Under the pieces are notes generated by a model. It was not told the origin of the DNA, did no database searches, and was given only the letters and a program-made list of their open reading frames with translations. Positions 36,275-47,860 of a stretch of DNA of 64,000 nt are shown in pieces. Origin of the DNA: Nostoc sp. (GTDB taxonomy: Bacteria > Cyanobacteriota > Cyanobacteriia > Cyanobacteriales > Nostocaceae). The position numbers were made by a program, and so were the translations under genes. Location of the stretch: contig JBALDB010000018.1 in assembly GCA_036918135.1 (NCBI GenBank), forward strand, positions 1 to 64,000, written 5' to 3'. Positions within the stretch are counted from its first letter, which is position 1. Every line of letters begins with the position of its first letter.

Positions 36275-36323
36275 TGTAGTATCTCCTTGACAATATGTAT
36301 TTTATATATTACAAATGTAGTAT
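36275..36323 (+). promoter_or_regulatory. promoter with two TGTAGTAT operator boxes
   Basis: TGTAGTAT at 36275-36282 and 36316-36323 flanking TTGACA (36287-36292) and TACAAA 17 bp downstream. Confidence 0.65.
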
Positions 36324-36365
36324 GAGAACAAAAGCTTTTCTAAAAGGCTAAGGCAAAACATCTCA

Positions 36366-36385
36366 GAACCTAGAAAACCGAATAG
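36366..36385 (+). promoter_or_regulatory. rrn-type boxA antitermination-like element
   Basis: GAACCTAGAAAACCGAATAG resembles the cyanobacterial rRNA ITS boxA (GAACCTTGAAAA) and following motif; small hairpin upstream. Confidence 0.6.
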
Positions 36386-36401
36386 CAAGTTACGACTTTT
36401 T

Positions 36402-36482
36402 GGGGTCGCGATTGGTGTTCGACTGCTCCGAAACCAACAAACGGACGGTAGCAGGATTCGGGTTCAATTCCCGACGACTCCA
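36402..36482 (+). ncRNA. mini-tmRNA (tRNA-like domain only, no tag reading frame)
   Basis: GGGGTCG/CGACTCC-A acceptor with G3.U70; tmRNA-type D region TGGTGTTCGAC; T arm TCGGG-TTCAATT-CCCGA; short helix 2. Confidence 0.8.
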
Positions 36483-36499
36483 CTGACTTCTACTTGTTT

Positions 36500-36706
36500 G
36501 GGTCTGTAACTCTAATGGTAGAGCGCCCAGATTCACTTGTGCTCTGACAGAAAAAGCTTACATACTTGCTCAAAGGTAGAGCGATCGTCTCTAAAACGAT
36601 AAGTGCAGGTTCAATTCCTGCGGTGTAACCACAGCTTTTTCAACTCGCACGAAGTGTGAGTGCAACTCTCACAGGGAAGGTATCGGTTCAATTCCGATCA
36701 GATCCA
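36500..36706 (+). ncRNA. handle RNA 1: Ala-identity tRNA shell whose anticodon arm holds a handle carrying a second tRNA-like body (CUA anticodon)
   Basis: Outer GGGTCTG/CAGATCC-A with D and T arms; handle 36539-36650; inner cloverleaf 36558-36631. Confidence 0.8.
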
Positions 36707-36732
36707 CTAAATAATTTGTAATTCGTAATTAA

Positions 36733-36948
<216 letters not shown>

Positions 36949-36961
36949 AATATTTAGTTAA

Positions 36962-37141
36962 CCATGCCCTAACAGAAGAAGCATACATACACATTCATAA
37001 CGATCCTAAGGTAGTAAAATTCGAGCGATCAAACTAGCGAAGTATGATTTATAAATTTTTTGCAGATTTAGCATACGTGCCCACTGCCAATAGTTGGTAA
37101 GAGCGATCGTAAGCTGTAAAAAGCTTCTTAAACTTGTACGG
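36962..37141 (+). ncRNA. handle RNA 2: circularly permuted 23S rRNA domain IV (H67-H71) mimic
   Basis: Handle motifs at both ends; ATAACGATCCTAAGGTAGTAAAATTC (36997-37022) resembles 23S 1916-1941; 37078-37112 resembles truncated H68 plus the H69 5' strand. Confidence 0.75.
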
Positions 37142-37156
37142 ATTAATTGAAGAATT

Positions 37157-37300
37157 AATTCCGCGCCCTGACTTGTAAAGCATACAAACATATATCCGGT
37201 AACGGAATACAGGTTCGATTCCTGTCGCTCCCTTTGATGGGAGCGTAGCCAAATTGGTAAAGGCAACTGTGAAAACTGCTTTGCTAACTTGTGCGGAATT
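37157..37300 (+). ncRNA. handle RNA 3: YrlA-like RNA with a circularly permuted class II tRNA domain
   Basis: Order: variable arm, T arm, acceptor stem CGCTCCC-tttgat-GGGAGCG closed by a loop, D arm; enclosed by the handle. Confidence 0.85.
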
Positions 37301-37361
37301 TCAATTATTTAAAATAGTAGTGTTTAGAGCAAGCCTTAGTGATTTTTCAAAACTAAAACTT

Positions 37362-37491
<130 letters not shown>

Positions 37492-37649
37492 TATAAATAT
37501 TAGATTTGGCAAAATTTTGATTGAGTGGAGGAAACTTATGCTCAAAGCTTTTAAAGACAGATTTTAAATAAAAAATCTTAATTTTAAAGCTATTAACTGG
37601 AATTAAAAACAATACTATTTATTGCAATTTAATATGATTTGAGGCTGCT

Positions 37650-38030
37650 ATGTCTGTGAACACTCTAGAAATTTTAGAGCAAATCAAGTCTCTAAATGTC
37701 AATGAAACCGCTCAATTAGTAAAGCAGATTGAAGCAACTTTCAATGTCGATATATCCACACCTAAATTCCTTAAGATTGACAAGCGAGATGAGGATGAAA
37801 CTCAACCGCAGATTCAAACGGAATTTGATGTCTTGTTGGTATCGGTTCCAACAGAGAAAAAGATTGCCTTACTCAAGGTCATCCGGACGGTGACTGGACT
37901 GGGACTCAAAGAAGCAAAAGACTTTGTAGAATCCCTGCCTCAAGTAGTTCAAGCAGGACTGAATCAAGAAGCGGCTGAAATTCTTAAGCAGCAGCTAGAG
38001 GAAACAGGAGCAGTTGTTTCTCTGATGTAA
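37650..38030 (+). CDS. rplL: ribosomal protein L7/L12 paralogue
   Basis: QTEFDVLL, KKIALLKVIRTVTGLGLKEAKDFVES; not next to rplJ; atypical charged hinge. Confidence 0.9.
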   Translation: MSVNTLEILEQIKSLNVNETAQLVKQIEATFNVDISTPKFLKIDKRDEDETQPQIQTEFDVLLVSVPTEKKIALLKVIRTVTGLGLKEAKDFVESLPQVVQAGLNQEAAEILKQQLEETGAVVSLM

Positions 38031-38095
38031 CAGAATTAGTCAAACAGGGAGTGTTGACTGCTGAGTTACGAATTCTCACTATCTTCCCAATCCTT

Positions 38096-38207
38096 GGCAG
38101 TTGTTGCTGCGCCCCGATAGCAGAAGCTTACATAACTCTGCATAAGTTATACACGATGCTTCTACAACTTGCGTGGTGACTGTATCGCCCCGCGTGCAAC
38201 ATCTGCC
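38096..38207 (+). ncRNA. handle RNA 5: minimal version with a lone anticodon-like stem-loop
   Basis: Handle 38107-38176; cargo ATAACT-CTGCATA-AGTTAT; outer helix GGCAG.TGTTGC/GCAACA.CTGCC. Confidence 0.75.
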
Positions 38208-38223
38208 TCCTCATCCATCATAA

Positions 38224-39672
<1,449 letters not shown>

Positions 39673-39807
39673 AGTACATCAGGGTGCGTTATGGTTACTC
39701 ATCACGCATCCCGATCTTATTCCATCATATATCCTCACTTTTATTGATTTACAAAGTTATAGTAAATTCTGTAAATTTAACTTATTATTAACTAATTCAA
39801 TTTGTTA

Positions 39808-40914
39808 CTAAACACCAAATAGGTACTTAGCAATGCTTTTATTTTTCATCAGAATGAATACAGCTAACCAACTCATGATAAAAGTGGGTAGAGAAAATGC
39901 TAATTGAGAAATAAAAGTTACTTCATCTAATAACTGAGGTTGAGTTTTCTTCAGATAAATCTCCATAAAATTAATTCCAAATAGGTGTATCAAGTAAATT
40001 CCAAAAGAACATAATGCTAAATTTCTTATGACGCTGTTTGGTTTTAAGTAATTCGATAAAACAATACCGTATAATAAAAGAGAATATCCCAGAAAAACTT
40101 CCCGAAAACCAGTAAGTATTGGGTTACTATAAACGTCAGCAATAAGAAATAAACCTAATAACAAGTAAGCATATACGAGTTTCACACGCAACAATGAAAA
40201 GTTGGTTTTAAGAAGTAAATACCTTAAAGTCATTGCAATAAAAAAGTAAGGTAAACACCTCAATAACCATGCTACTTCTATAGATATAAACCTCAAAAAC
40301 TCATTTTTAGAAGGCTCGTAATTCACTAGATTAAATAAATTATTAAAAGCTATATCGTTATGTAAATCTACTGTATTTCCAGTAATTAAAAGCAGGTTGT
40401 AGAGGATGAGGCTCAACAGAGACAAACTAGCTAATATTTTAAGTCCAATTTTCGGTTTTGCGAAGTAATTTGCAAATATTATGAGCGAAGTACCTACTAG
40501 CAATAGCGGTAAATAGTATAATTGATATGATGCTTTTCCATAAAATATAATTAAAAAAGGATCTCCTAATAGATGATTTAATTCTTCTTTTTGATTTGAT
40601 GCTGAAAACATAATTATTTTGGCAATCAGATAAATAACTGTCCAAACTATATATGGTATTAGGAGACGCCGACATCTTGCTTTCCAATAAGTTAATGAAA
40701 AGTCAGCATTCGACTTACAAATCATGAAGTAGAAAGATGCAGCTAAGAAAAAGGGAACAGCAAAACTAAATAGATATTGTATCTCTTGGGAAAAGTAACT
40801 TGCACGATCCCGATTTGGATCGGCTGAATGTAGTAAGACAACTGCGTATGCCGCGATTCCTCGGCACAAATCAACACCCGATAGCCTTGGTTTTGCCTCT
40901 ATTTTTGACTGCAT
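39808..40914 (-). CDS. acyltransferase family 3 membrane protein
   Basis: DLCRGIAAYAVVLLH, FAVPFF, RRLLIPY, SFGIYLIH; AT-rich. Confidence 0.9.
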   Translation of the reverse strand: MQSKIEAKPRLSGVDLCRGIAAYAVVLLHSADPNRDRASYFSQEIQYLFSFAVPFFLAASFYFMICKSNADFSLTYWKARCRRLLIPYIVWTVIYLIAKIIMFSASNQKEELNHLLGDPFLIIFYGKASYQLYYLPLLLVGTSLIIFANYFAKPKIGLKILASLSLLSLILYNLLLITGNTVDLHNDIAFNNLFNLVNYEPSKNEFLRFISIEVAWLLRCLPYFFIAMTLRYLLLKTNFSLLRVKLVYAYLLLGLFLIADVYSNPILTGFREVFLGYSLLLYGIVLSNYLKPNSVIRNLALCSFGIYLIHLFGINFMEIYLKKTQPQLLDEVTFISQLAFSLPTFIMSWLAVFILMKNKSIAKYLFGV

Positions 40915-40976
40915 TGTTAGTATTAAAGTAGATTTTTTGAAAAAATAAAGTATTCAAGTGGTTTTTTGTTTATAGA

Positions 40977-41119
40977 TAGGACTTATGCACTTTACACATT
41001 GACTATCATGTGGATGGTAGGCTCGTTAAGCTAAAAGTCTTGCCCTGCCTCGTTCCCAGATTCTGCCTTGTAACGATAGGTAAGCCACAGTTGTTATCTC
41101 TGTGAATGCATAAGTCCTA
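40977..41119. repeat. MITE-like element with 13-bp inverted ends
   Basis: TAGGACTTATGCA ... TGCATAAGTCCTA. Confidence 0.6.
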
Positions 41120-41240
41120 ATAAAGTTAACCAATTAATATTAGAAATACCATACCATATAAAACCCGATTTGATTTATGAAAACATCATGAGACTAAAAA
41201 GCCCGTTTTATCTAAAATCTTATTCAAAAATTAAATATGA

Positions 41241-41549
<309 letters not shown>

Positions 41550-41707
41550 TGAAATCATTCTGCGTATGCAGATAAAGGTTTTGATGCTCTGAGTAATTTA
41601 GCTTTTTTGTCTTTGTTGAAATAAGGCTGTAAATTAAAGGGTTTAAGATCCGCTTTGTAGGCATAACTAGCAGCCAAAATATTTACCGGAAAGTAACAAG
41701 TGTTAAT

Positions 41708-41725
41708 TGTAGTATAATGTAGTAT
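41708..41725 (+). promoter_or_regulatory. tandem TGTAGTAT boxes overlapping a TATAAT -10 element
   Basis: TGTAGTATaaTGTAGTAT; TATAAT at 41713-41718, just upstream of handle RNA 6. Confidence 0.7.
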
Positions 41726-41735
41726 TAGAATCTCA

Positions 41736-41938
41736 TGCGTGCCCCAACTCGTGGAGCCTACATATTAGTACGAGAGGAAGGTAACACTGCCGAATGCAGT
41801 GGGCGTTAGTGAACGGGGAGTGCGAAGAACCTGGAAAGTGGGCTTAGAAGTAGCCATCTTTGAAAGAGTGTGTAACAACTCACCAGCGGAGTCCCTCTAG
41901 TAACTGAGAAAACGCAATGCTCCACCAACTTGCACGCA
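41736..41938 (+). ncRNA. handle RNA 6: sarcin-ricin loop plus GTPase-associated centre (H42-H44) mimic
   Basis: AGTACGAGAGGA at 41767-41778; 41830-41887 colinear with 23S 1051-1108; handle TGCGTGC/GCACGCA. Confidence 0.85.
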
Positions 41939-42551: not shown

Positions 42552-43382
42552 ATGACTGACATCCGTAAGCTAATCAACCAAATTGCTAGCGCAGAAGCAC
42601 AGTTGTGTAATACTCAATTTCTTGCGCCTTGTGTAAAAGGTGGACGAGTTCGCACACGAGTAGTAGGGATGGTCTATACCTTCACACCAAAGCCGAATAA
42701 ATTTGAAGGTTGGGGTATTTTTCAGCCGGTGGATGAGAAGATAGCAATGGTTGTGGAAGAGGCAGATTTACCTCAAATTGCCGAATACCTGCAACACTTT
42801 CCCCAAATACGGCTGCGGCTAGCATACCAACTGCGGGGACAAAGTTGGTTAGCATACCCCGTGAATGAAGCAGATATACGTCAACGGTTGCAGGTGGTTA
42901 AACCGATCGCCATTCATCTAGTAACTGAAAGTATTATTTTTGACCAAATCATCGCCCGTTGGAATGGACAGTCCTGCTGGTTTGAGGAAATCGATCATCG
43001 TACCGATCCGGCTATTGTTGAAACTCTGCAATCAGCTGTTAAGCAACTGATTCCCGTTGAAGAATTGCAATTTAAAGGCATAACGCCAGAAATTCGCACA
43101 GTCTATGAATTAGCAACACGGCAAATTGAAGGCTTTGGGCAACCCCAACAGGATGAAAAGCGATTGAGAAAGGCATTGCAGATGGGTGGCGGTGAATTAA
43201 AGCAGTTTCACGATCGCGGTGATTACTGGACAGTGGACTGGACAACTGCTGATGGTGTTCGCCACAGTAGTGCGATCGCCAAAACTGACTTGACTGTAAT
43301 CAGTTCTGGTATTTGCCTAAGTGGATACGATCGCAACTTTGACTTGCAATCGTTAGTTGGTGTAATGGAACAACAAGAGTAG
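42552..43382 (+). CDS. hypothetical protein with C-terminal SGICLSG motif, directly upstream of ThiF
   Basis: 276-aa ORF, 24 bp upstream of the ThiF gene; family not recognised. Confidence 0.85.
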   Translation: MTDIRKLINQIASAEAQLCNTQFLAPCVKGGRVRTRVVGMVYTFTPKPNKFEGWGIFQPVDEKIAMVVEEADLPQIAEYLQHFPQIRLRLAYQLRGQSWLAYPVNEADIRQRLQVVKPIAIHLVTESIIFDQIIARWNGQSCWFEEIDHRTDPAIVETLQSAVKQLIPVEELQFKGITPEIRTVYELATRQIEGFGQPQQDEKRLRKALQMGGGELKQFHDRGDYWTVDWTTADGVRHSSAIAKTDLTVISSGICLSGYDRNFDLQSLVGVMEQQE

Positions 43383-43406
43383 TAAGTGTATTAATTACGA
43401 ATTATT

Positions 43407-44045
43407 ATGAGTATCTTTTTTCACGAACAGCTTTACCGCAGCAATGCTGTGATGGCAAAGTTGAAAAACTATCCTGTAACAATTTGTGGGGCGGGGGCGT
43501 TAGGGGCTAATATTGCTGAGAATATGGCTCGGTCTGGTTTTGATAAACTGACAGTAATCGATTGCGATCGCATTGAGGAGCGTAATCTTTCCACCCAGCC
43601 TTACTACCGTTCCGATGTTGGAGCATTCAAAGCAAAAATATTGGCAAACAATTTATACCGAGCAATTGGTACTAAAGTTGATGCTAAAACCAAAGAATTG
43701 ACATCAGCAAATGTCAATCAACTACTCCAAGATAGTCAATTAATTATTGATGCTTTTGACAATAGCGTAGCACGTCAATTAGTAAAAGATTATGCCACTC
43801 AATTTAGCATTCCTTGTCTTCATGCTGGGCTAGCAGTTGATTATGCAGAGGTAATTTGGAATGATGTTTATCGCGTTCCTTCTGAGGTTAATGATGATGT
43901 TTGTGATTATCCTTTGGCACGAAACTTAGTAATATTAACCGTTGCTGTAGTATCGGAAGCGATTGTTTCATTTATTGCCACAACAGAACGGCGTAACTTC
44001 ACCATCACTTTGAAGGATTTGACTGTTCAACCTTTGTTTTTGTAG
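43407..44045 (+). CDS. ThiF/MoeB/E1-like adenylyltransferase
   Basis: GAGALG, D.DRIEERNLSTQ, KA, IIDAFDN..AR; lacks CxxC zinc pairs. Confidence 0.92.
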   Translation: MSIFFHEQLYRSNAVMAKLKNYPVTICGAGALGANIAENMARSGFDKLTVIDCDRIEERNLSTQPYYRSDVGAFKAKILANNLYRAIGTKVDAKTKELTSANVNQLLQDSQLIIDAFDNSVARQLVKDYATQFSIPCLHAGLAVDYAEVIWNDVYRVPSEVNDDVCDYPLARNLVILTVAVVSEAIVSFIATTERRNFTITLKDLTVQPLFL

Positions 44046-44127: not shown

Positions 44128-44358
44128 GTGCCTAAGAAAATTAGAGAACTGAAGGCAATGGTAGCAAAAGTTGGATATATTCTTCAGCCAGGTCGAGGAA
44201 AAGGAAGTCATACGTATTGGAAACATCCGTTATTACCTGAAGAACCTCTGACTATTCCAGGTAAGGAGGGAGATGATGCTCCGCTATATTTGGAGAAGAA
44301 CATTCAACGGGTTCTCAAAAGGTTGGAAGAGTTTGAAAGCGATGAAGGTGAATCATAA
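44128..44358 (+). CDS. hicA: HicA toxin (mRNA interferase)
   Basis: GKGSH motif, 76 aa. Confidence 0.9.
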   Translation: MPKKIRELKAMVAKVGYILQPGRGKGSHTYWKHPLLPEEPLTIPGKEGDDAPLYLEKNIQRVLKRLEEFESDEGES

Positions 44359-44589
44359 ATGAGTTATTACTACAGCATGGTGATTCAGTGGTCAGAGGAC
44401 GATCGACTATTCTTAGTGCATTTGCCAGAGTTCCCCTGGCAGGAGTTTCATACGCATGGCAAAACTTACGAAGAAGCTGCCAAAAATGGGCAGGAAGTAA
44501 TTGAGGCGTTTGTTGAGATGCTGCAAGAAGAGGGAAAACCACTACCAGAACCCAGAATGCTTCCTAGACGACCATTACAGGTTGCTTAG
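44359..44589 (+). CDS. hicB: HicB antitoxin
   Basis: WSEDD...LPEF...THGKTYEEA...GKPLPEP. Confidence 0.9.
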   Translation: MSYYYSMVIQWSEDDRLFLVHLPEFPWQEFHTHGKTYEEAAKNGQEVIEAFVEMLQEEGKPLPEPRMLPRRPLQVA

Positions 44590-47015: not shown

Positions 47016-47540
47016 CTACTCGCTTTCATTCATCCGTTGTACGCTCCAAAAATGTTCTGCAAATGCAACGGCGGGGTGAATTGGAGCTTTAGGCTTGGTT
47101 TTGAGTACCATAGATGCTTCATGAGGTAAGCGATCGCTCTTAGTTGAGTTACACTTCTCGCAGGCAGTTACAACGTTATCCCAACTATGCTGTCCACCTT
47201 TGGAACGAGGAATCACATGGTCAAGGGTTAAACGCTTACCGCTACCACAGTATTGACAAGTATGATTATCGCGCTTGAGTACTTCACGACGATTTACAGG
47301 AGGTACTTTCCAGTGTCGTTCTGGATTACCCGTTGTCAAACGAATGTGTTCCGGAACTTGTAGTACAATACTGGGCGAGCGGACTTCCCACTGCTTTGTA
47401 CTGCCAAAATTCAATGATTCTGCTTGACCAGTAACTAACAGTACTATTGCTCGTTTGATGTTGATACGTGCCAATGGTAAGTAGTTCTTGGAGAAGACTA
47501 CCACCGAATTTTGTAGTATGTGTGGCTGCTGAACTTGCAT
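47016..47540 (-). CDS. HNH endonuclease
   Basis: RDNHTCQYCG..LTLDHVIPRSKGG..WDNVVTACEKCNSTK; ATG at 47540 with GAGGAG RBS. Confidence 0.93.
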   Translation of the reverse strand: MQVQQPHILQNSVVVFSKNYLPLARINIKRAIVLLVTGQAESLNFGSTKQWEVRSPSIVLQVPEHIRLTTGNPERHWKVPPVNRREVLKRDNHTCQYCGSGKRLTLDHVIPRSKGGQHSWDNVVTACEKCNSTKSDRLPHEASMVLKTKPKAPIHPAVAFAEHFWSVQRMNESE

Positions 47541-47556
47541 GGATAAAGAGCTCCTC

Positions 47557-47596
47557 AAAAAAATAACCCCCACTTCTGGTTATCAGCAGCGGGGGT
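47557..47596 (-). terminator. terminator/attenuator immediately upstream of the HNH RBS
   Basis: ACCCCCGCT...AGTGGGGGT-TATTTTTTT on the minus strand. Confidence 0.75.
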
Positions 47597-47835
47597 CAGG
47601 TAGTTGATACTTTTTGCCTGTTTATAGGTGCTATCAAACAGTTGCACCTCCCGCTGTGGATTATTCGATCCCAATTGACCACTAGAGCGATCGTGAAAAT
47701 ACTTTCACTTGCAGATTTAACCCCCAATAACCAATACGTCCTCTCAAACGCACGCGCACCAGGTGTTCTGCCTGTACCCTTGCTCGGTTGACAATGCATC
47801 ATGCTATTAATGGTTGAAGAGAATCTGGTTATCAT
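47596..47835 (-). CDS. putative leader ORF
   Basis: 79-aa ORF whose TGA abuts the terminator stem. Confidence 0.4.
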   Translation of the reverse strand: MITRFSSTINSMMHCQPSKGTGRTPGARAFERTYWLLGVKSASESIFTIALVVNWDRIIHSGRCNCLIAPINRQKVSTT

Positions 47836-47843
47836 CGAATTTC

Positions 47844-47860
47844 TGTAGTATTTGTAGTTT
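47844..47860. promoter_or_regulatory. TGTAGTAT/TGTAGTTT boxes upstream of the HNH unit
   Basis: Same motif as at 36275, 36316, 41708 and 41718. Confidence 0.6.

What the first reader, a model, noticed from the sequence alone, without database searches (positions are those of the whole stretch)
37650..38030. Orphan L7/L12 paralogue in the same locus as a stalk-base RNA mimic
Seen: a full rplL-like gene without rplJ. The C-terminal factor-binding domain is conserved, but the Ala-rich hinge is replaced by TPKFLKIDKRDEDETQPQ. Known: L12 recruits translational GTPases through L10 bound to H42-44. Inference: with RNA 6 it could assemble a ribosome-free GTPase-activating or sequestering particle, or it may remodel stalks under stress.
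Basis: partly seen in the sequence, partly recalled or inferred. Interest (0 to 1): 0.74.

Follow-up and report, generated by a model that had tools for sequence, protein, structure and literature searches.

The report
Optional stress L12 in Ro60-RNA module
Some cyanobacteria carry a second, altered copy of the ribosomal stalk protein L12 inside a probably stress-induced gene module that also encodes a Ro60-like protein and RNAs imitating tRNA and the ribosome's factor-binding centre; the copy is real and conserved, but the module often does without it.

Summary
Observation confirmed. 37650-38030 encodes a full 126-aa L7/L12, 50% identical to the housekeeping rplL, which lies with the only rplJ and rplK on another contig. 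The factor-binding residues are kept, the hinge is charged and hydrophobic instead of Ala/Gly-rich, and the family is under purifying selection (dN/dS 0.14). It forms its own cyanobacterial clade. It sits in a module headed by TrcR boxes, encoding a Ro60-fold protein, an E1-like enzyme and Y-RNA-like wrappers carrying tRNA, tmRNA and SRL+H42-44 mimics. Among 401 genomes, 39 hold the RNA and 4 the paralogue. Other copies of the module carry extra EF-Tu or EF-Ts. Best reading (0.5): an optional stress-induced stalk subunit loaded through housekeeping L10. A ribosome-free GTPase-centre particle stays possible (0.25). No binding or expression was shown. Five look-ups of earlier scan notes returned nothing related.

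The parts
37650..38030 (+). L7/L12 paralogue, 126 aa: N-terminal dimerisation helices 3-13 and 17-30, altered hinge about 35-56, canonical C-terminal domain 59-125
36275..36323 (+). Two TGTAGTAT TrcR-type boxes (36275, 36316) around a TTGACA word at 36287; inferred repressed promoter of the RNA/L12/Ro60 unit
   Evidence: motif from PMC10272220; enrichment; the sigma-70 scan did not list this promoter
36402..36485 (+). Miniature tmRNA-like tRNA domain without a reading frame
   Evidence: Rfam tmRNA 43.2 bits, below the gathering score of 47; E=9.9e-15
36538..36650 (+). tRNA-like cargo inside a Y-RNA-like wrapper stem
36748..36948 (+). Conserved 66-aa ORF ending in Gly; 'ubiquitin-like' is my inference from size, C-terminus and the E1-like neighbour (no family hit)
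   Evidence: no hit; present in 93 of 106 Ro60 loci
37076..37486 (+). Three further wrapped RNAs: 37076-37140; 37162-37296 (weak YrlA hit, E=0.14); 37368-37486 (tRNA-like)
38108..38176 (+). Short wrapped RNA between the L12 gene and the Ro60 gene; also present in most loci that lack L12
38239..39672 (+). Ro60-fold (TROVE-like + vWA) protein, 477 aa; core gene of the module
   Evidence: profile hit to human Ro60 E=1.8e-18, phage Ro60 and Rsr; model pLDDT 93; Foldseek ranks 1-12 are Ro60/Rsr, TM 0.63-0.69
41708..41725 (+). Tandem TGTAGTAT boxes overlapping a TATAAT word; inferred own promoter of the stalk-base RNA
41738..41936 (+). 'RNA 6': wrapper stem carrying an SRL word (41767-41778) and an H42 kink-turn/H43/H44 mimic
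42552..43382 (+). Conserved 276-aa protein of no known family, part of the module
43407..44045 (+). ThiF/E1-like enzyme, part of the module
   Evidence: PF00899 E=1.1e-28; 75 of 106 loci

Best explanation
The gene is an optional spare stalk subunit of a translation-stress module. Shown: an old cyanobacterial duplicate of rplL, kept next to a Ro60-like gene, with intact dimerisation and factor-binding domains and a shorter, charged hinge. Inferred: when translation stalls, TrcR repression lifts and the paralogue is made together with the RNAs and Ro60. It dimerises and loads onto the C-terminal helix of housekeeping L10, because no other L10 exists. The main pool of L10 is ribosomes, so it yields mixed or replaced stalks that keep recruiting GTPases, outside the L10-leader feedback that governs rplJL. 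The new hinge changes the reach or mobility of the C-terminal domain rather than abolishing function. Any L10 bound to RNA 6 could carry it too, but that is not required.
For: Factor-site residues K71, K76, R79, K87, E88 and K90 are all kept in 117 of 120 homologues. They align to the E. coli V66-K70/L80/E82 region named in PMC5887453 (passage; alignment). N-terminal hydrophobic positions I8, L15, L23, I27, F31 and V33 are invariant in 23 paralogues and 28 housekeeping copies. dN/dS is 0.14 for the N-terminal domain, 0.11 for the C-terminal domain and 0.25 for the hinge (30 genes). TGTAGTAT lies upstream in 83 of 94 loci and 28 of 33 paralogue loci, against about 0.01 expected per stretch. A likely trcR with the published motif is in this genome. 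Other copies of the module carry extra EF-Tu (3 of 106 loci, one directly behind the paralogue), EF-Ts (1), Tpt1/KptA, an RNA ligase or nucleotidyltransferases. Presence changes 8-11 times on the Ro60 tree. A phage L12 joined E. coli 70S ribosomes (10.1101/174177, passages).
Against: Expression and ribosome binding were not shown. Paralogue-specific substitutions lie in the N-terminal domain (T20, T30, D34, S36), and position 18 is Asn here but Leu in 27 of 28 housekeeping copies; these could weaken L10 binding. The hinge is conserved in pattern (S-x-P, hydrophobic run, acidic run), which may mean a binding motif rather than a plain linker. All 9 context-bearing copies found from the L12 side lie next to the Ro60 gene, which a purely ribosomal role does not by itself require. 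The opposite-strand control for the TrcR box was not empty (29 of 94), and the upstream box pair differs from the published tandem signature.
Confidence: 0.5

Rival explanations
1. Dedicated subunit of a ribosome-free GTPase-centre particle: Ro60 holds the wrapper of RNA 6, L10 and L11 bind its H42-44 mimic, and paralogue dimers recruit EF-G or EF-Tu to the SRL mimic as a sponge, decoy or GTPase activator. Housekeeping L12 would fill in where the paralogue is lost.
For: RNA 6 keeps the kink-turn pattern (A96, A159, C91 and G160 in 34 of 34; G95 in 31, G158 in 32). 38 pairs are 97.6% paired, 7 with double changes, 0 of 500 shuffles as high. Its SRL word occurs in all four 23S genes of a relative. 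L10 recognises a kink-turn (PMC10931766, passage). All 4 paralogue genomes of the 401 sample hold the RNA. One genome with the RNA cut to a 3' fragment has R79L in the paralogue (a single case).
Against: No enrichment: 19/22 against 36/44 loci (p=0.74), and 4/4 against 34/45 Ro60-positive genomes (p=0.56). The RNA has its own boxes and is often far from the operon. Two draft genomes have an intact paralogue and no RNA hit beyond 23S-like matches. No L10 was found in any Ro60 locus.
Confidence: 0.25
2. Free or Ro60-tethered adaptor/decoy that does not use L10: the new hinge is a docking motif (for Ro60, the small ubiquitin-like protein or another partner), and the conserved C-terminal domain soaks up GTPases or stalk-targeting toxins.
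For: Constant position directly upstream of the Ro60 gene; conserved hinge pattern under selection; N-terminal substitutions.
Against: The N-terminal domain is conserved about as strongly as the C-terminal one. Ro60, the small protein and E1 persist without the paralogue in 63 of 96 loci.
Confidence: 0.15
3. Brake: the paralogue enters stalks, but its shorter, less flexible hinge makes it a poor activator, which slows elongation during stress.
For: The hinge is about 23 residues against 27, with Ala+Gly 0.02 against 0.46. The flexible hinge is essential for activity (PMC6753160, passage).
Against: The model leaves the hinge disordered (pLDDT under 60). The TrcR regulon is described as supporting translation and survival. 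Co-located EF-Tu and EF-Ts copies suggest support rather than inhibition.
Confidence: 0.07
4. Decaying, functionless duplicate.
For: Patchy presence; one truncated copy (L093) and one copy with an internal stop (L151).
Against: dN/dS 0.14; about 120 full-length homologues listed; one clade across several families.
Confidence: 0.03

Closest known systems
Housekeeping bL12 (rplL, TIGR00855)
   Same: Both domains, the factor-binding residues, the length; passes the NCBIfam cut-off.
   Different: Outside the rplKAJL cluster and its L10 leader; Ala/Gly-poor hinge; own clade; patchy; behind TrcR-type boxes.
Condition-specific r-protein paralogues (bL31B/YkgM, YtiA; PMC10931766 passage)
   Same: A divergent second copy under a repressor, which would replace the main copy under a stress.
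   Different: Those swap zinc-binding for zinc-free forms under Zur. Here the protein is the multi-copy stalk, the regulator is TrcR-type and the change is in the hinge.
Phage-encoded L7/L12 (10.1101/174177, passages)
   Same: An extra L12 outside the operon, shown there to enter 70S ribosomes.
   Different: This clade was not found in viral contigs (best 42%), phage records or plasmids; it nests among cyanobacterial L12s.
TrcR regulon and trn L-array of Anabaena PCC 7120 (PMC10272220, PMC8421152; passages and one section)
   Same: TGTAGTAT boxes, silent spare translation parts, RNA-repair neighbours.
   Different: No rplL or L12 occurs in either main text, and no Ro60-like gene is named in the TrcR table; supplements were not read.
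Bacterial Ro60/Rsr with Y RNAs (YrlA/YrlB; PMC4201824, passages)
   Same: Ro60-fold protein next to small RNAs with a terminal stem and tRNA-mimic cargo.
   Different: Divergent Ro60 family without a Pfam TROVE hit; many wrappers with different cargo, including an rRNA GTPase-centre mimic; the published 5' Ro-binding motif is not at the 5' ends; ribosomal protein and E1-like genes are attached.

Membership tests
bL12 (L7/L12) | C-terminal factor-binding domain | tested here: met
   PF00542 83.3 bits against cut-off 25.9; fold in the model; key residues kept in 117 of 120
bL12 (L7/L12) | N-terminal dimerisation domain | tested here: met
   PF16320 38 bits against cut-off 25; invariant hydrophobic positions
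bL12 (L7/L12) | Flexible Ala/Gly-rich hinge | tested here: not met
   Ala+Gly 0.02 (32 paralogues) against 0.46 (28 housekeeping). Still modelled as disordered, so composition fails and flexibility is open.
bL12 (L7/L12) | Binds L10 and sits on the 50S subunit | not testable with these tools
   Needs pull-down or gradients
Housekeeping rplL | Encoded behind rplJ under the L10 leader | tested here: not met
   The C27 copy has this context; no L10 in any Ro60 locus
TrcR regulon | TGTAGTAT-type box at the promoter and trcR in the genome | tested here: met
   trcR is identified by context and the published motif, not by a reference sequence
TrcR regulon | Derepression in a trcR mutant or under translation stress | not testable with these tools
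   No expression data in hand
Ro60/Rsr (neighbour gene) | HEAT-repeat ring plus vWA domain | tested here: met
Y RNA / YrlA (neighbour RNAs) | 5' GNCGAAN0-1G Ro-binding motif; YrlA model above its gathering score | tested here: not met
   Motif absent from 7 of 8 RNAs and only internal in RNA 6; best YrlA score 24.1 against 69. 'Y-like' describes architecture, not membership.
L10-binding RNA site (RNA 6) | H42 kink-turn with H43/H44 | tested here: met
   By sequence pattern and covariation only; binding itself not tested

The most novel reading that the evidence does not exclude
The module builds a ribosome-free copy of the GTPase-associated centre. A Ro60-held RNA displays the sarcin-ricin loop and H42-44, and binds L11 and L10. 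The paralogue is its dedicated stalk, whose altered hinge positions translational GTPases on the mimic, so that it activates, sequesters or shields them, or decoys ribotoxins and thiopeptides, during translation stress.
Probability: 0.2. Interest if true: 0.9.

Novelty: new variant of a known kind. Interest (0 to 1): 0.58.

Why it matters
Ribosomal protein genes are rarely duplicated (PMC3353972, passages), and the well-studied divergent pairs concern zinc. A conserved, probably repressor-controlled bL12 with an intact factor site and a rewritten hinge is a natural variant for asking what the hinge sequence does and whether bacteria remodel the multi-copy stalk under stress. It also points to a larger find: a Ro60-like module whose RNAs mimic tRNA, tmRNA and the SRL/stalk base, and which takes on spare L12, EF-Tu or EF-Ts. 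That module, more than the L12 gene, deserves follow-up.

Tried and rejected
Complex prediction of L10(120-176) with two copies of paralogue residues 1-40: no answer (0.18 against a mark of 0.32); not evidence either way. RNA runs: no RNA holder listed; not evidence. The sigma-70 scan did not list the presumed promoter. RNA 6 folded alone is not more stable than shuffles (z -0.61); support comes from the alignment. The short wrapped RNA just behind the L12 gene was considered as a specific partner and rejected, because it is present in most loci with and without L12. Linkage to the extra EF-Tu was rejected: 1 of 3 EF-Tu loci has the paralogue. Second L12-like hits in G027 and G028 are C-terminal-domain-only proteins. 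No viral or plasmid origin was found. Paper searches listed no description of this paralogue or of an SRL/GAC-mimic RNA beside Ro60. A 2016 survey of RNA-repair systems that I recall discussing Ro-like proteins was not held and may describe the protein module; supplements of the TrcR, L-array and r-protein census papers were not read. The two earlier scan notes returned were unrelated.

Full report
Observation. Window 37650-38030 (+) is a 126-aa ORF that hits both Pfam L12 domains and passes the TIGR00855 cut-off. The genome holds two L12 genes. The other, 50% identical, lies on contig C27 behind rplK-rplA-rplJ with an L10 leader; L10, L11 and EF-Tu are single-copy. The finding is real.

The protein. 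The homologue search gave 217 hits at E<=1e-20; the best 120 were listed, 124-136 aa long, and those with names are annotated as L7/L12 of Nostoc, Calothrix, Tolypothrix, Aulosira and other filamentous cyanobacteria. In a tree of 48 rows, 25 paralogues form one side of a branch (support 82/90, not starred) against 17 housekeeping cyanobacterial and 6 other L12s; the outgroup attaches among the housekeeping rows. Six basic/acidic residues of the factor-binding surface are all present in 117 of the 120 hits. They map by alignment to the E. coli region named in PMC5887453 (passage); the exact residue numbering for K65, R73, K81 and K84 is recalled. The hinge has Ala+Gly 0.02 in 32 paralogues from loci and 0.07 in 44 of 45 distant hits, against 0.46 in 28 housekeeping copies, and is about 23 against 27 residues long. 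A pattern of S-x-P, a hydrophobic run and an acidic run recurs. My pairwise Nei-Gojobori script on 30 genes gives dN/dS 0.14 overall, 0.14 N-terminal, 0.11 C-terminal and 0.25 in the hinge (316 of 435 pairs usable there). The AlphaFold model has the expected domains and a low-confidence hinge (mean pLDDT 68). N-terminal hydrophobic positions are shared with housekeeping L12, but T20, T30, D34 and S36 are paralogue-specific and position 18 varies.

The module. The next gene (38239-39672) is a Ro60 relative: a 64-sequence profile hits human Ro60 at E=1.8e-18, and the model's first twelve Foldseek ranks are Ro60/Rsr. Around it lie a conserved 66-aa ORF, a 276-aa ORF and a ThiF/E1-like gene (93, 78 and 75 of 106 loci). 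There are also several RNAs that share a terminal wrapper stem and carry different cargo: a miniature tmRNA-like domain, tRNA-like folds, and 'RNA 6' at 41738-41936. RNA 6 matches Rfam LSU 1093-1148 and runs parallel to real 23S through the H42 kink-turn region. It keeps the tandem G-A pattern and covaries (38 pairs, 97.6% paired, 7 pairs with double changes; the structure was drawn from these sequences, so this leans in its favour). It carries a 12-mer found in all four 23S genes of relative G013 just past model position 2660, where the SRL lies (the SRL label is recalled). The RNAs do not pass Y RNA membership tests. TGTAGTAT, the TrcR-type site of PMC10272220 (passages), stands twice before the RNA/L12/Ro60 unit and twice before RNA 6. 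It lies within 800 nt upstream of the small ORF in 83 of 94 loci (opposite strand 29 of 94; genome background 224 sites in 7.66 Mb). A likely trcR with the published motif is on C2. TrcR-type repeats mark genes induced by translation stress (PMC8421152, passages). Induction of this locus is inferred, not shown.

Of 80 Ro60 loci from named genomes, 66 span the module: 19 have paralogue and RNA 6, 3 the paralogue only, 36 the RNA only, 8 neither (one truncated paralogue counted as present). The 14 partial loci were dropped (2 both, 4 paralogue only, 4 RNA only, 4 neither). Fisher p=0.74; kin are not independent. In a draw of 401 cyanobacterial genomes (same settings and family tallies in the three searches), the Ro60 gene was found in 49 (a few are fragments), RNA 6 in 39 (38 of them Ro60-positive by comparing the lists) and the paralogue in 4. 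That cut-off misses very divergent or decayed copies such as those of G032 and G234. All 4 have RNA 6, as expected from the base rate (p=0.56). Of 10 paralogue-bearing genomes checked whole, 7 hold a full or nearly full RNA 6, often on another contig; one holds a 3' fragment and two only 23S-like hits (draft assemblies). By contrast, all 9 copies found from the L12 side with enough context lie just upstream of the Ro60 gene. On a Ro60 tree of 96 loci, presence needs 11 changes, at least 8 forced by well-supported branches, which reads most simply as early presence and repeated loss. So the paralogue belongs to the Ro60 module as an optional part and is not specially tied to RNA 6. Other copies of the module carry a second EF-Tu (3 loci, in G314 directly behind the paralogue), EF-Ts (1), Tpt1/KptA, an RNA ligase or nucleotidyltransferases. 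No Ro60 locus carries L10.

Mechanism. L12 reaches RNA only through L10 (PMC4592705, passage), and only housekeeping L10 exists, so the simplest route is loading onto L10. I put 0.5 on a stress-induced alternative stalk subunit that works mainly on ribosomes, and 0.25 on a dedicated subunit of a Ro60-RNA 6-L10/L11 particle. A free or Ro60-docked adaptor gets 0.15, a brake 0.07, and decay 0.03. The first two are compatible: RNA 6 looks able to bind L10, and housekeeping L12 could serve on it where the paralogue is lost. A further inference is that RNA 6, by drawing off L10(L12)n, would relieve the L10-leader feedback (PMC10931766, passage), whereas the paralogue escapes that feedback altogether.

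Comparison and novelty. It works like a condition-specific r-protein paralogue (bL31B type) or a phage L12. It is a bL12 family member by both domains, but not a housekeeping rplL. Nine paper searches listed no description of it. I saw passages only of the papers cited (plus one whole section of PMC10272220) and no supplements, and a relevant survey of RNA-repair systems was not held. NCBI names the proteins simply L7/L12. Verdict: a new variant of a known kind, interest 0.58. The ribosome-free GTPase-centre reading has probability 0.2 and would merit 0.9.

Noticed in passing
window 36275-41936: Divergent Ro60-like gene with several wrapper RNAs carrying tRNA, tmRNA-domain and SRL+H42-44 mimics; RNA 6 tracks the Ro60 gene in 38 of 39 genomes. 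Probably the more novel element of the locus.
   Followed up: partly
G000:C56:190538-190733 (-): Second, degenerate H43-44-like stretch behind a tandem TrcR-type box elsewhere in the same genome.
   Followed up: no
G000:C2:19976-20360: Likely trcR gene with the published autoregulatory motif upstream.
   Followed up: partly
L148:6636-7865, L152:3964-5190, L154:14286-15512, L033:6944-7606: Second EF-Tu (74-79% identical to this genome's EF-Tu) and EF-Ts copies inside or beside the Ro60 module of other cyanobacteria.
   Followed up: partly
window 41331-41585: Partial duplicate of the Ro60 gene (residues 249-333) just upstream of the RNA 6 promoter.
   Followed up: no
L137:6972-7694 and 71 other loci: A 241-aa protein of no Pfam family lies between the small ORF and Ro60 in 72 of 106 loci but was not found in this genome.
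   Followed up: no
window 36748-36948, 42552-44045: Small Gly-ending ORF, 276-aa unknown and E1-like enzyme suggest a ubiquitin-like conjugation arm of the module; substrate unknown.
   Followed up: no
L130:7469-7846 (G432): Paralogue with R79L in a genome whose RNA 6 is reduced to a 3' fragment; a single case.
   Followed up: no
L097, L113, L121, L140: Two RNA 6 copies in one locus; in three of these one copy has a different 3' end.
   Followed up: no
window 47016-47851: HNH gene with nearby TGTAGTAT words, resembling the TrcR-regulated HNH genes of Anabaena; a hicA/hicB-like pair lies at 44128-44589.
   Followed up: no
L034:8504-8905, L035:8715-9200: Proteins with only an L12 C-terminal domain behind an unrelated N-terminus in two other cyanobacteria.
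   Followed up: no
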